A stretch of DNA of 31,743 nt, taken from Kofleriaceae bacterium. Its GTDB lineage: Bacteria; Myxococcota_A; Polyangia; Haliangiales; Haliangiaceae. The position numbers and the translations under genes are program-made. The notes beneath the pieces are model-generated. The model saw nothing but the letters and a program-made list of their open reading frames with translations, made no database searches and had not been told where the DNA came from. Shown in pieces: positions 11,794 to 21,381 of the stretch; position 1 is the stretch's first letter, and each line of letters begins with the position of its first letter. The stretch is taken from contig DATMCI010000056.1 of assembly GCA_035558535.1 (NCBI GenBank), forward strand, positions 1-31,743, in the 5' to 3' direction.

Positions 11794-11833
11794 GATCGAT
11801 CAGCTAGTCGCGTCGAACGGGGCGTAGCCGCGG
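11794..11833. repeat. 40-bp direct repeat copy A (gatcgatcagctagtcgcgtcgaacggggcgtagccgcgg), 36/40 identical to copy B at 21342-21381
   Basis: Direct comparison of the two stretches. Copy A sits in the convergent gap between the aldolase (+) and VOC (-) genes. In an otherwise non-coding frame it would read ...[10 protein letters not shown], which is the MVP C-terminus. Confidence 0.85.
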
Positions 11834-11834
11834 C

Positions 11835-12284
11835 TCACCGCGCAAACAGGCGCTCCGGATCCTTGAACGACTTGAGCTCGATGTGATTGCCGCTGGGATC
11901 GCGCAGGAACATCGTCGCCTGTTCGCCGACCTGCCCCGGAAACCGCACGTGGGGCGCGATCACGAACGTCACACCCGCGCGCTCGAGCCGCCCCGCCAGG
12001 TCGTGCCACGTATCCCACGGCAGGATGGCGCCGAAATGCGGCACCGGCACCTGCTTGCCGTCAACTGGGTTCTCGCCAGCGGGGGTGATCGGTTCGTGCG
12101 GCTGCCCCCGAGACGCGAGGTGATGCGCCGTGAGCTGATGCCCGAAGAAGTCGAGATCGATCCACGACTCACTCTCTCGACCGACCCGGCAACCGAGCAG
12201 CTCGCAGTAGAACGCCCGGGTGGCCTCCAGATCGGTGACAGGGAACGCGAGATGGAACGGGGGCAGACTCATCGCGGCAAGCAT
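11835..12284 (-). CDS. VOC family (glyoxalase/bleomycin-resistance/dioxygenase fold) protein
   Basis: [23 protein letters not shown] ... [29 protein letters not shown] ... [13 protein letters not shown], the typical paired beta-alpha-beta-beta-beta module. Confidence 0.8.
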
Positions 12285-12335
12285 CGCATGTCGCCGCCAG
12301 CGACGCGGCAGAACCACGACGAATGCGCGATCGCG

Positions 12336-12770
12336 TCAACCGCCTCGAGCTCCCGGCGCCGGGGCTTCGGCGCGATGCCCGGTCAAGGAAAGGAGGATGT
12401 GCCCTGCGAGTGCTCCGAGCTCCGTCTGAAGGAACCTGGAATCGATGGCACTACCGAAACGCACCCAAAGCGGATCCCAATAAACTTCCGTTCGTGTGCT
12501 GGTCACTTGCAGGTAATGCTTCAACGACGCGAGGCGCTGATGGACATCCGGAGCGGCGACTTCGTCGGGAGCCACGATGTCGAGATAACTCACGATCCGG
12601 TTCTCCCCCGGCGGCACCTCCAGCCACTGGCGAACGAGCTCCCCCGGGTTCGTGTCTGGAAGCAGCTCGTCCGGGACGCGCGTCCAGACGGACGACCCAT
12701 GGACGTACTGATAGACGTTGACGCCGCGTGCTCCGCGCGGCGACACGACACGCTGCGCGGTCAGTAGCAC
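12336..12770 (-). CDS. Hypothetical protein (144 aa), third gene of the low-GC HEPN operon; GTG start overlapping the upstream stop (TAGTG)
   Basis: Protein-like composition. 1-nt overlap with the upstream gene. No family recognised. Confidence 0.5.
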   Translation of the reverse strand: MLLTAQRVVSPRGARGVNVYQYVHGSSVWTRVPDELLPDTNPGELVRQWLEVPPGENRIVSYLDIVAPDEVAAPDVHQRLASLKHYLQVTSTRTEVYWDPLWVRFGSAIDSRFLQTELGALAGHILLSLTGHRAEAPAPGARGG

Positions 12771-18622: not shown

Positions 18623-18696
18623 GGGATCTCCCTTCGATTCGAGTCCGTGATTGTACTGCAAGCCCACGCAACCACCGCGCAAGCAGGCCGTCCCGG

Positions 18697-18734
18697 CCTA
18701 TCAGCGCGGATAACTCGCTATCCGCCGCTATCGC
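18697..18734 (+). repeat. R-family repeat copy R3 (cctatcagcgcggataactcgctatccgccgctatcgc), 38/41 identical to R2 core, in the divergent gap between the CxxCH lipoprotein gene and the MVP gene
   Basis: Direct comparison. Contains the hairpin gcggata-actcgc-tatccgc. Confidence 0.8.
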
Positions 18735-18870
18735 ATCGCATCCAGTAACCCCCTGAATCCCCAGGGCCGCCCGCCTGGTCTCAGCCCTGCACGGAGCCGC
18801 CGCCGGAGCCGCCTCGGCAGTCCCAGGAAGCGTGGGTGCGATGACGAAGCTCGAACGAAAGGCAACGATC

Positions 18871-21375
18871 ATGAGCGAGACGCAGAAGCGAGACCTCGTG
18901 CTGCCGCCCGGCAGCTACGCGTACATGCAGGACGTCACCAAGGGCGTGGTGAAGACCTATACCGGCCCGACGGTCATCAACCCCACCGCGCAGGAGCGGC
19001 CCGTCGTGTACGAGCCGGCGTCGAACACGTTCCGCAGCGTGCCGTCGCTCGAGGAGGCGATGCGGATCTCGCCGCTCGCTGCCGAGGGCTACTACATCAT
19101 CCTGCGCAACCCGGCGAAGGGGAACAAGCACCCCGAGGAGGGCAGCGCGCAGCCGAGCGCCGAGCAGGAGCTCGGTCGCACGATCATCGTGCCCGGACCG
19201 GCGACGTTCGCGCTGTGGCCGGGCCAGGCCGCCGAGGTCGTCGAGGGGCACCACCTGCGCTCGAACCAGTACCTGCTCGTCCGCGTCTACAACGAGGACG
19301 AGGCGCGCAAGAACTGGAGCAAGGCCGTCGTCAAGCCGGCGACCGTCGAGGGCGAGCCGTCGCCCGCGCAGCAGGTCACGGCCACGCCGCCGCCGGATCT
19401 GACCGTCGGCAAGCAGCTCATCATTCGCGGCACCGAGGTGTCGTTCTACATCCCGCCGACGGGCATCGAGGTCGTGCGCGAGCCCGGCGCGGATCACTAC
19501 GCGCGCGAGGCGCTCACGCTCGAGCGGCTCGAGTACGCGATCCTCGTCGACGAGAACGGCAAGAAGCGCTACGAGGTCGGCCCGCAGGTCGTGTTCCCGC
19601 TGCCCACCGAGCGGTTCGTCGAGGCGCGCGACGACGCGGGCCGCCCGAGCAAGAAGTTCCGCGCCGTCGAGCTCAACGAGATCCAGGGCCTCCACATCAA
19701 GGTGATCGCCCAGTACTCCGAGGGCGGCGTCACCCACCGCGCCGGCGACGAGCTGTTCATCACCGGCAAGGACACCGCGATCTACTTCCCGCGCGAGGAG
19801 CACTCGGCGATCAAGTACGACGGCAAGGCCAAGCACTTCGCGACCGCGATCCCGGCCGGCGAGGCGCGCTACGTGATGAACCGGCTGACCGGCGCGATCC
19901 GCACCGTCCGCGGCCCGGCGATGCTCTTGCCCGATCCGCGGCACGAGGTGATCGTCCGCCGCGTGCTCTCGGACCGCGAGTGCAGCCTGTGGTACCCGGG
20001 CAACCAGGAGGCGCTCGCGTACAACCAGAGCGCGCGCGCGCTGCTCGGCAACGTGCCGACCACGCGCCAGGGCGTCCTGTCCGAGGGCGACATCGAGCGC
20101 GGCGGCAAGCGCGTGCAGAAGCCGAACACGCCGGGCATGGTCATGGAGGCGAGCCGCGTCAGCGGCGACCAGGCGCTGGTCGCCGACGAGTTCTCGCGCG
20201 CCAGCACCTACTCGCAGCCGCGGATGATCACGCTCGACAACAAGTACCAGGGCGCGCCGCAGATCACGCCGTGGACCGGCTACGCCGTGCTCGTCACGTC
20301 GAAGACCGGCCGCCGCCGCGTCGAGCTCGGCCCGGCGACCGTGCTGCTCGACTACGACGAGGGGCTCGAGACCCTGACCCTGTCCACCGGCAAGCCCAAG
20401 AGCACCGACCGGCTGCTCGAGACGCCGTACTTGCGCGCCTGGAACAACCAGGTCTCCGACACCGTGTACGTCGAGACGCTCGACCACGTGCACCTCGCGC
20501 TCAACCTGTCGTACCGCGTCGACTTCGAGGGCGATCCGCTGCGGTGGTTCGCCGTCGAGAACTACGTCAAGTTCCTGTGCGACCACGTGCGCTCGCTGCT
20601 CAAGGGCGAGATCCGCAAGCACACGATCGAGGACTTCTACGCGACCTCGACCGATCGGATCCGCGACTTCATCCTCGGCGCGCCGGAGGGCGACAAGCGC
20701 CCGGGCATGGCGTTCGCCGCGAACGGCATGCGGATCGTCGACGTCGACGTCTTGAAGGTGATCCTCCAGGACGAGAAGATCCGCGCGCTGCTCGAGCAGG
20801 CGCAGCACGACGTCGTGCGGACGAACATCGACCTGTCGAACCTCACCCGCGAGCTCGCGGTGACGCGGCAGCGCGAGGCGATCAGCCGCGAGGTGGCCGA
20901 GGTCAAGGCCGCGACCCGGGTGCGCCAGGACGAGCTTGCGCGCGAGCTGGCGGCGAGCGAGCTCGCCACGGCGCTGGCGCGGATCACGAACACGCTGCGC
21001 GAGACCGACGAGCGGCGCCGGCTCGTCGAGGCCGAGCAGGCGATGGAGAGCTACAAGCTCGGCCAGCGCATCGAGCGCGTCAAGCGCGAGCGCGACCAGG
21101 AGCTCGCGTTCTTCGCCCAGGAGCAGCAGAAGAAGATCGAGCTGCTCCGGGCGGAGGCCGAGACCGCGGTGCAGCGGTTCGGGGCCGTCTCCGGCAGCTT
21201 CAGCGAGGCCCTGCTCGTGCTCGGCCGCAACGAGACGCTGGTCAAGGTCGCCCAGGCGTGGAGCGTCCAGCGCCAGATCGAGGGCGAGTCCCTCGGCGAC
21301 ACGCTGACGCGGCTGTTCCACAACACGCCGCTCCGGCCGCTGGTCGATCAGCTCGTCGCGTCGAACGGGACGTAG
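18871..21375 (+). CDS. Major vault protein (MVP) homolog, full length: N-terminal MVP repeat domains, shoulder (SPFH-like) domain, C-terminal cap-helix coiled coil
   Basis: Alignable blocks with eukaryotic MVP as I recall its sequence (from memory, not checked here): [13 protein letters not shown]...[14 protein letters not shown] corresponds to IRIPPYHYIHVLD...[25 protein letters not shown] corresponds to [34 protein letters not shown] corresponds to [66 protein letters not shown] corresponds to [43 protein letters not shown]. A long Glu/Arg/Ala-rich helical tail follows. ATG at 18871 gives 11 aa before the PP motif, as in the eukaryotic protein. Confidence 0.85.
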   Translation: [834 protein letters not shown]

Positions 21376-21381
21376 CCGGGG
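21342..21381. repeat. 40-bp direct repeat copy B (ggtcgatcagctcgtcgcgtcgaacgggacgtagccgggg), spanning the last codons and stop of the MVP gene
   Basis: 36/40 identity to 11794-11833. Here it encodes [10 protein letters not shown]. Confidence 0.85.

What the first reader, a model, noticed from the sequence alone, without database searches (positions are those of the whole stretch)
11794..21381. 40-bp direct repeats bracket a 9.5 kb accessory segment; one copy is a displaced duplicate of the MVP 3' end
11794-11833 and 21342-21381 are 36/40 identical and in the same orientation. Copy B encodes the last residues and TAG stop of MVP ([10 protein letters not shown]). Copy A lies in non-coding DNA between two convergent genes, yet in its own frame it reads [10 protein letters not shown]. 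It therefore looks like a relic MVP terminus rather than a random repeat. The bracketed segment carries the VOC gene, the low-GC HEPN operon, the Pro-rich/WGR/beta-helix operon, the CxxCH lipoprotein and MVP itself, and is internally mosaic (R-family repeats, GC shifts). This fits att-like scars of an integration, replacement or segmental-duplication event centred on the vault gene. No integrase or transposase is present inside.
Basis: seen in the sequence. Interest (0 to 1): 0.65.

Follow-up and report, generated by a model that had tools for sequence, protein, structure and literature searches.

The report
Relic tail of relocated vault gene
A 49-base leftover copy of the end of a bacterial vault-protein gene lies 9.5 kb upstream of the intact gene; it is most likely a dead scar of gene shuffling in a very changeable stretch of a myxobacterial genome, not the border of a mobile element.

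Summary
The repeat is real. Copy B is the last 13 codons, the stop and 7 further bases of MVP. Copy A is non-coding, lies between aldolase and VOC, and shares lineage-specific bases with B, so it is a genuine MVP-tail remnant.

The bracketed 9.5 kb is not one island. The only relative that shares the flanks (JGI contig Ga0671504_0000357, 85-95% nt) has aldolase-ProR-Lipo-...-GGDEF in the same order, without MVP, the VOC cassette or either repeat. The window differs by three separate inserts: remnant+VOC cassette, WGR/beta-helix, and MVP. Copy B ends exactly at the backbone boundary (21382|21383).

The segment also holds an internally deleted second ProR copy and a duplicated 36-nt spacer of similar divergence. 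No recombinase, tRNA or RNA structure was found. All close MVP orthologs sit in rtcR-rtcB-MVP, so this MVP was relocated.

Verdict: a rearrangement scar, of modest interest. One open point: MVP tails are duplicated around neighbouring DNA in three other lineages (4/144 MVP ends against 3/821 other gene ends, p=0.012).

The parts
11786..11834 (+). T_A: non-coding remnant of the MVP 3' end (13 codons, TAG and 7 nt)
   Evidence: 42/47 identical to T_B. It shares GAT-CAG, GGG and TAG-CCG-GGC with T_B against the closest orthologs, and keeps the ancestral AAG (Lys) codon where T_B has CGG. It is absent from the aldolase-ProR spacer of relative L167.
21334..21382 (+). T_B: functional 3' end of MVP plus 7 nt
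   Evidence: Backbone homology to L165/L167 starts at 21383, immediately after it.
18871..21375 (+). MVP (major vault protein homolog, 834 aa)
   Evidence: Pfam MVP_shoulder and Vault_3. Gene call in L081. 91% nt identity to L082 only over 18823-21368.
11010..11747 (+). Class II aldolase, a backbone gene to the left of T_A
   Evidence: Pfam Aldolase_II. Homologous to L167rc 7687-8780; homology ends at about 11756.
11757..11785 (.). 29-nt orphan between the backbone boundary and T_A
   Evidence: No significant similarity to MVP, its upstream region or anything else in the window.
11835..13640 (-). Window-specific insert (i): VOC/glyoxalase gene (11835-12284) and three small ORFs (12336-12770, 12770-13192, 13189-13578), GC 0.65
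   Evidence: Pfam Glyoxalase. Only a weak HEPN hit, E=0.021, for the third small ORF. Absent from L167 and from all 160 MVP loci.
13687..14700 (+). ProR (Pro-rich secreted protein), a backbone gene; its 5' part 13703-13791 is repeat copy P1
   Evidence: 88% nt identity to L167rc 8920-9951. Repeat pair.
14702..17408 (+). Window-specific insert (ii): WGR protein (14725-15696) and beta-helix protein (15698-17371)
   Evidence: Pfam WGR and Beta_helix. Only the first 57 nt (14709-14765) have a counterpart in L167, beside OmpA.
17409..17444 (+). O1: copy of a 36-nt spacer repeat containing the palindrome GCGGATAACTCGCGATCCGC
   Evidence: 34/36 identical to 18699-18734. Only two copies, with 0.05 expected by chance.
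17442..17545 (+). Internally deleted second ProR copy: 5' 89 nt (P2) fused to the last ~16 nt and stop
   Evidence: P1/P2 match 81/89. Both share a 6-nt indel against L167. The 3' end and spacer match the L167 ProR end, with microhomology at the deletion joint. No start codon.
17579..18622 (-). Lipo (CxxC/cytochrome-c-like lipoprotein), a backbone gene
   Evidence: 89% nt identity to L167rc 9936-11069. Widely conserved in Kofleriaceae.
18699..18734 (+). O2: second copy of the 36-nt spacer repeat, about 135 nt upstream of the MVP start
21388..22446 (-). RR-GGDEF gene, first gene of the conserved right backbone (21383-31742)
   Evidence: Pfam. 92.5% nt identity to L165 over 10.4 kb.

Best explanation
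T_A is a non-functional remnant of an MVP copy that once ended tail-to-tail against the VOC gene. It does nothing today. It is a scar of duplicative rearrangement and loss in a plasticity zone between aldolase and the RR-GGDEF operon.

Shown:
- T_A derives from this lineage's own MVP tail.
- This MVP has been detached from the ancestral rtcR-rtcB-MVP operon.
- Compared with the closest relative, the window carries three separate lineage-specific inserts: T_A plus the VOC cassette, WGR/beta-helix, and MVP plus T_B. They are interleaved with the backbone genes ProR and Lipo.
- T_B ends exactly at a backbone boundary.
- The same segment holds two further duplicates of similar divergence, including a second ProR copy gutted by an internal deletion.

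Inferred:
- MVP and the VOC cassette were formerly adjacent (MVP, tail, then VOC on the opposite strand), as MVP in every relative is followed directly by a variable cassette.
- A duplication or translocation then placed a full MVP next to GGDEF.
- The copy in front of VOC lost its body by deletion. I slightly favour this in-situ route. The alternative is that it was cut off when the VOC cassette was captured from the old MVP locus.
For: - Repeat significance.
- A and B share derived bases, and A keeps the ancestral Lys codon.
- All MVP orthologs of 89-90% identity have rtcR-rtcB-MVP, and window/L082 nucleotide homology is confined to 18823-21368.
- Backbone colinearity with L165/L167 and the insert boundaries at 11756, about 13640, 14701, 17529, about 18650 and 21383.
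- Internally deleted ProR copy and sister status of P1/P2.
- O1/O2 duplicate.
- Similar divergence of the three pairs (T 89%, P 91%, O 94%).
- In-place gene-end remnants at replaced segments also occur in the relative (LRR 3' remnant, WGR 5' remnant).
- No recombinase, tRNA, Rfam family, terminator or stable fold.
Against: - No full-length MVP copy beside VOC has been observed in any genome.
- The 29-nt orphan to the left of T_A has no identifiable origin.
- Only one relative shares the backbone, so the order and number of events cannot be reconstructed. A single tandem duplication cannot account for all three repeat pairs.
- MVP tails are duplicated around neighbouring DNA in three other lineages, more often than other gene ends. 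This may point to something more specific than random scarring.
Confidence: 0.6

Rival explanations
1. Tail-specific recombination. The MVP 3' tail is a preferred crossover site, used by a host or trans-acting recombinase or by RecA on short homology, through which DNA next to MVP is gained and lost. T_A/T_B would be one product of that process.
For: - MVP-tail direct repeats of 53-69 nt bracket unrelated inserts in L140 (with a degenerate version in L109) and in L115. A third locus, L070, is a 202-nt tandem duplication that includes the tail.
- L033, whose MVP region is closer to L109 (96%) than to L140 (93%), lacks the 9.55 kb operon precisely and has one tail copy. This fits deletion between the repeats.
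- Left repeat boundaries lie 39 to 72 nt before the end of the stop codon in all four lineages.
- Enrichment is 4/144 MVP ends against 3/821 other gene ends, p=0.012.
Against: - No recombinase lies in or next to any of the bracketed inserts.
- The repeats share no motif beyond the Asn-Gly codons.
- Two other inserts at the same MVP|VIT-VWA junction (L049, L041) have no tail duplication.
- In the window the topology is reversed, with the remnant upstream and backbone genes inside the bracket.
- The counts are small.
Confidence: 0.15
2. Hitch-hiker only. No MVP copy ever sat beside aldolase. The VOC cassette was captured from the old rtcB-MVP-VOC locus with 49 nt of MVP tail attached, and MVP itself was captured separately.
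For: - It needs only two insertions.
- It explains why both MVP and the remnant are out of the rtc context.
- T_A lies 29 nt inside the left edge of insert (i), and T_B lies at the right edge of insert (iii).
Against: - No locus with VOC downstream of MVP was found among the 160 MVP-centred loci fetched.
- The same segment shows genuine in-situ duplication (ProR, O).
- This is a variant of the best explanation and not an opposite of it.
Confidence: 0.2
3. One reading: attL/attR scars of one integrated 9.5 kb island carrying MVP.
For: Direct repeats made of a gene's 3' end bracket mostly accessory genes.
Against: - No integrase is present.
- The intact target gene is inside the bracket.
- The relative retains the bracketed ProR and Lipo genes in order and has no repeat copy.
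- Only T_B coincides with an insert boundary.
Confidence: 0.05
4. T_A is a functional element, such as a terminator or regulatory RNA, a peptide tag reached by frameshift, or a site kept by selection.
For: In L140 the duplicated tail is read in frame as the C-terminus of a SWIM protein, and the two copies are 53/53 identical.
Against: - Fold z-scores are near 0 on both strands, and there is no terminator or Rfam hit.
- T_A is out of frame with aldolase, and its own frame looks non-coding.
- It has accumulated non-synonymous changes (P for L, I for V, A for T).
Confidence: 0.03

Closest known systems
attL/attR direct repeats of integrase-mobilised islands and prophages that insert into the 3' end of a gene (classically tRNA/tmRNA genes)
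   Same: Direct repeats of roughly 50 nt, consisting of the last part of a gene plus a few bases, on both sides of mostly accessory genes.
   Different: There is no recombinase. The intact gene lies inside the bracket and the partial copy lies upstream of it. The bracket contains backbone genes that a relative keeps in the same order. No empty site with a single copy exists.
Gene remnants (pseudogene fragments) left at the borders of duplicated, deleted or replaced segments in bacterial integration hot spots; the tandem-duplication and random-loss type of reshuffling
   Same: It is a short, non-coding, diverging copy of a gene end at the edge of lineage-specific DNA. It is accompanied by other partial duplicates (the internally deleted ProR copy, the O spacer) and by cyclic-permutation-like order changes (OmpA/Lipo).
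   Different: The parent gene is a vault-protein homolog that was itself displaced from a conserved operon. The exact sequence of events cannot be reconstructed.
Insertion-duplication (Campbell-type) structures and deletion between short direct repeats
   Same: In the related L140/L109/L033 loci a 9.55 kb operon flanked by 53-nt tail repeats is precisely absent in one genome. That outcome is expected for recombination between such repeats.
   Different: The window's copies are only 89% identical, with a longest exact run of 15 nt, and recombination between them would delete MVP itself.
Bacterial RtcR-RtcB-MVP RNA-repair operons (Burroughs and Aravind 2016, as cited in PMC13404743; bacterial MVP survey in bioRxiv 10.1101/872010)
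   Same: The window's MVP is an ortholog (89-90% aa) of MVPs that sit directly after rtcB.
   Different: Here MVP has no rtcR or rtcB neighbours within the 31.7 kb contig and is preceded by a different 220-nt upstream region.

Membership tests
att sites of an integrated genomic island or prophage | Direct repeats of target-gene sequence at both ends of the insert | tested here: met
   42/47 direct repeat, E=5.5e-8
att sites of an integrated genomic island or prophage | Tyrosine or serine recombinase (or other integration enzyme) encoded in or beside the element | tested here: not met
   Pfam and NCBIfam scans of all substantial ORFs in the window, plus the precomputed Pfam hits of L081, show none
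att sites of an integrated genomic island or prophage | Intact target gene outside the element, with the displaced partial copy at the far end downstream | tested here: not met
   The full MVP is inside the bracket and contiguous with T_B; the partial copy T_A is 7 kb upstream of the MVP start
att sites of an integrated genomic island or prophage | A related genome with an empty site: flanks contiguous and one repeat copy | tested here: not met
   L165/L167 shares both flanks but has ProR, Lipo, OmpA and other genes between them and no T copy
Gene remnant from duplication or rearrangement | Homology to a parent gene beyond chance, sharing lineage-specific substitutions | tested here: met
Gene remnant from duplication or rearrangement | No start codon or coding context; not fused to a neighbouring ORF | tested here: met
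   A different frame from aldolase; the frame's ORF has GC3 0.52 against about 0.9 for real genes
Gene remnant from duplication or rearrangement | Located at the border of lineage-specific DNA, with other partial duplicates nearby | tested here: met
   29 nt inside the left edge of insert (i); the internally deleted ProR copy and the O1/O2 pair lie in the same segment
Gene remnant from duplication or rearrangement | Evidence of the former full-length copy at that place | not testable with these tools
   No closer relative is available; collection scans and contig look-ups were exhausted
Dispersed short repeat family (REP/MITE-like) | Many copies across the genome | tested here: inconclusive
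   Two copies in the window, none in 160 related loci totalling 2.17 Mb (161 fetched; the other is the window's own contig), none in viral contigs. The rest of the source genome could not be searched.
Dispersed short repeat family (REP/MITE-like) | Palindromic or stably folding unit | tested here: not met
   Fold z-scores from -0.32 to +0.11

The most novel reading that the evidence does not exclude
The last 40-70 nt of bacterial MVP genes would be a recurrent recombination site in Myxococcota. DNA next to the vault gene would be inserted with duplication of the tail and lost again by recombination between the tail copies. This would make the vault locus a cassette-exchange platform that always preserves an intact MVP C-terminus. 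The window's T_A/T_B pair would be a rearranged product of that process.
Probability: 0.15. Interest if true: 0.6.

Novelty: new member of a known kind. Interest (0 to 1): 0.3.

Why it matters
For this locus, the result shows that the vault-protein gene is not carried on a self-contained mobile island. It was moved out of its usual rtcR-rtcB RNA-repair operon into a hot spot of gene turnover, which bears on inferring its regulation and partners from neighbouring genes. More generally, it is a worked example showing that a pair of gene-end repeats around accessory genes need not be att sites, and that a single related contig was enough to tell the two apart. The one lead worth following is that MVP tails are duplicated in four independent lineages, with one apparently precise loss of a 9.55 kb operon between such repeats.

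Tried and rejected
- Synteny search around 160 MVP-centred loci from GTDB genomes and JGI metagenomes. None shares the window's flanks.
- Exact-protein look-ups of the closest MVPs. All have rtcR-rtcB-MVP and unrelated downstream genes.
- Lipo relatives L168-L170 share only that gene. The look-up of a Lipo paralog from the same MAG (P0259) failed.
- A 5' MVP remnant in the 29-nt orphan: not significant.
- Remnants of rtcB or rtcR in the window: none.
- RNA structure, terminator, tRNA and Rfam explanations: negative.
- Viral origin of the repeat or of one of the VOC cassette's small ORFs (12770-13192): negative.
- A single tandem duplication explaining all three repeat pairs. Rejected on order constraints: T must precede O in one copy and follow it in the other.
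- An integron-like reading of the P|cassette|O pattern. Dropped, because ProR and Lipo are backbone genes and no integrase or attC-like fold exists.
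Full report
**Observation.**
- The two copies are present as described: 36/40 at 11794-11833 vs 21342-21381, extending without gaps to 42/47 at 11788-11834 vs 21336-21382.
- Nothing else in the window matches within three mismatches, and shuffles give none.
- A self-BLAST of the window finds only three dispersed repeats with E<1e-3, and this is one of them.
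- Copy B (T_B) is the last 13 codons, the TAG stop and 7 further bases of an 834-aa major vault protein homolog. MVP spans 18871-21375 and has Pfam MVP_shoulder and Vault_3 hits.
- Copy A (T_A) lies between the aldolase stop (11747) and the stop of a minus-strand VOC/glyoxalase gene (11835-11837).
- T_A reads ...[13 protein letters not shown], in a frame that is out of register with aldolase and has a non-coding codon profile.

**Origin of copy A.**
- The window is a whole metagenomic contig of a Kofleriaceae MAG (ENA ERZ27228470 k141_883413).
- Among MVP orthologs, the last 10 or so codons are hypervariable even at 89-90% overall identity.
- T_A and T_B nevertheless share GAT-CAG, GGG and TAG-CCG.GGC against the closest orthologs. 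T_A keeps the ancestral AAG Lys codon where T_B has CGG.
- T_A is therefore a diverged copy of this lineage's own MVP tail, starting at about 11786. It is not a conserved motif.
- It does not recur in 2.17 Mb of related loci or in viral contigs.

**Context of MVP.**
- In nearly all orthologs with 73-90% identity, MVP directly follows rtcB, with rtcR divergent upstream. The DNA after the MVP stop differs in every genome.
- The rtcB-MVP association is already described in the literature (Burroughs and Aravind 2016, as cited in PMC13404743).
- The window has no rtc genes. Its nucleotide homology to the 90% ortholog L082 is limited to 18823-21368.
- This MVP has been relocated.

**The decisive comparison.**
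- A histidine-kinase ortholog (90% aa) led to JGI contig Ga0671504_0000357, held as L165 and L167.
- Put in window orientation, it reads: LRR 3' remnant, aldolase, 134-nt spacer, ProR, Lipo(-), OmpA(-), a 57-nt WGR 5' remnant, LamG, a 2003-aa gene, DUF4198, RR-GGDEF, HK, and onward.
- The matching nucleotide blocks are listed below.

| Window | L167 reverse complement | Identity | Content |
|---|---|---|---|
| 10738-11751 | 7687-8780 | 85% | LRR end and aldolase |
| 13643-14701 | 8920-9951 | 88% | ProR |
| 17529-18647 | 9936-11069 | 89% | Lipo |
| 21383-31742 | L165 13876-3444 | 92.5% | GGDEF onward |

- The relative has no MVP, no VOC cassette and no T-like sequence in its aldolase-ProR spacer.
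  - (i) 11757-13640: a 29-nt orphan, T_A, VOC and three small ORFs.
  - (ii) 14702-17528: WGR, the beta-helix gene, O1 and P2.
  - (iii) about 18651-21382: O2, MVP and T_B.
- T_B ends exactly where backbone homology resumes, at 21382|21383, with a few bases of possible microhomology.

**Other duplicates in the same segment.**
- Positions 17442-17545 are a second ProR copy. It lacks a start codon and is gutted by an internal deletion between short similar sequences. It retains 89 nt of the 5' part and the last ~16 nt with the stop.
- Its 5' part is 91% identical to the intact ProR. Both share a 6-nt indel against the relative, so the duplication is lineage-specific.
- A 36-nt spacer element containing the palindrome GCGGATAACTCGCkATCCGC occurs twice, at 17409-17444 and 18699-18734, on either side of Lipo.
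- The three pairs have similar divergence: 89%, 91% and 94%.
- OmpA, adjacent to Lipo in the relative, lies 14 kb away in the window.
- The relative itself carries in-place gene-end remnants (LRR 3' end, WGR 5' end) at replaced segments.
- Gene-end relics are thus a regular by-product of turnover in this region.

**Alternatives excluded.** There is no recombinase or transposase, no tRNA, no Rfam family, no terminator and no stable fold.

**Interpretation.**
- T_A is best read as what is left of an MVP copy that once abutted VOC tail-to-tail.
- Two routes fit the data. In one, a full copy stood there after a duplicative rearrangement and its body was later deleted, as happened to the second ProR copy. 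In the other, the 49 nt travelled with the VOC cassette when it was captured from the old MVP locus.
- I cannot separate these two routes. One tandem duplication cannot explain all three repeat pairs, because of order constraints.
- The island/att reading fails four of five defining tests.

**Related loci.**
- Searching the MVP tail of every fetched locus against its own locus found three more lineages with duplicated tails.
- L140: a perfect 53-nt repeat brackets a 9.55 kb WGR-DUF4132 / MoxR AAA / DUF5682 / VWA / SWIM operon. The second copy forms the C-terminus of the SWIM ORF.
- L109: the same insert, with a decayed second copy.
- L033: its MVP region is closer to L109 (96%) than to L140 (93%). 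It lacks the operon precisely and has one tail copy, which fits deletion between the repeats.
- L115/L044: a 69-nt repeat brackets a 3.2 kb insert at a junction (MVP|VIT-VWA) that is empty in three genomes and holds other inserts, without duplication, in two.
- L070: a 202-nt tandem duplication that includes the tail.
- As a control, duplicated coding 3' ends occur at 4/144 MVP genes against 3/821 other genes in the same loci (odds ratio 7.8, Fisher p=0.012).
- This enrichment is suggestive but rests on small numbers, and no recombinase accompanies any case.

Noticed in passing
window 18823-21375; loci L082, L162, L163, L001-L015: Orthologs of this MVP sit in a conserved rtcR(-)/rtcB(+)/MVP(+) arrangement. 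The window's MVP is the only one of the close orthologs found outside it, with a different 220-nt upstream region.
   Followed up: yes
window 17442-17545: Internally deleted pseudogene of the Pro-rich secreted protein. It keeps 89 nt of the signal-peptide region fused to the last ~16 nt and the stop, has no start codon, and shows microhomology at the joint.
   Followed up: yes
window 17409-17444 and 18699-18734: A 36-nt direct repeat (34/36) containing the perfect palindrome GCGGATA-ACTCGC-TATCCGC, with one copy about 135 nt upstream of the MVP start. It could be an operator; it has only two copies and none in related loci.
   Followed up: partly
L140 12445-12497 and 22062-22114; L109; L033 12473-12537: A 9.55 kb WGR-DUF4132 / MoxR AAA / DUF5682 / VWA / SWIM operon flanked by perfect 53-nt MVP-tail repeats. 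The SWIM ORF ends in the MVP tail peptide (AGANGDPAQLTP*). The operon is precisely absent in L033. The 53/53 identity within L140, against 7.5% divergence between lineages, suggests gene conversion or selection on both tails.
   Followed up: partly
L115 9588-12263 and homologs in L043, L046, L048, L049: In one MVP paralog group the gene after MVP encodes a VIT-VWA protein, the same domain pair as in eukaryotic vault PARP4. The MVP|VIT-VWA junction carries three different inserts in different genomes.
   Followed up: partly
window 14725-15696; L140 12515-15592; L109 2941-; L026 7871-8050: WGR-domain proteins recur next to MVP genes in several lineages. WGR is otherwise known from PARPs.
   Followed up: no
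L167 (reverse complement) 11480-11536 and 7688-7961: The related contig carries a 57-nt 5' remnant of the WGR gene (96% to window 14709-14765) in front of an unrelated LamG gene. It also carries a remnant of about 270 nt from the LRR gene's 3' end in front of aldolase.
   Followed up: yes
window 4454-9115 and 9170-10984: A 1553-aa Peptidase_C14-nSTAND1-WD40 protein, with 13 tandem 126-nt WD40 units and hits to TEP1 beta-propeller models, followed by a 604-aa LRR protein. Both are absent from the related contig except for the LRR 3' remnant.
   Followed up: no
window 3349-3825 vs 17579-18622: OmpA and Lipo are adjacent in the related contig but 14 kb apart and in swapped order in the window. 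This is a cyclic-permutation-like change, like the one implied by T_A and T_B.
   Followed up: partly
L156-L161: MVP homologs of about 40% identity on human-gut metagenome contigs. These may be the phage-borne MVPs reported by Santos et al. 2023, as cited in PMC13404743.
   Followed up: no
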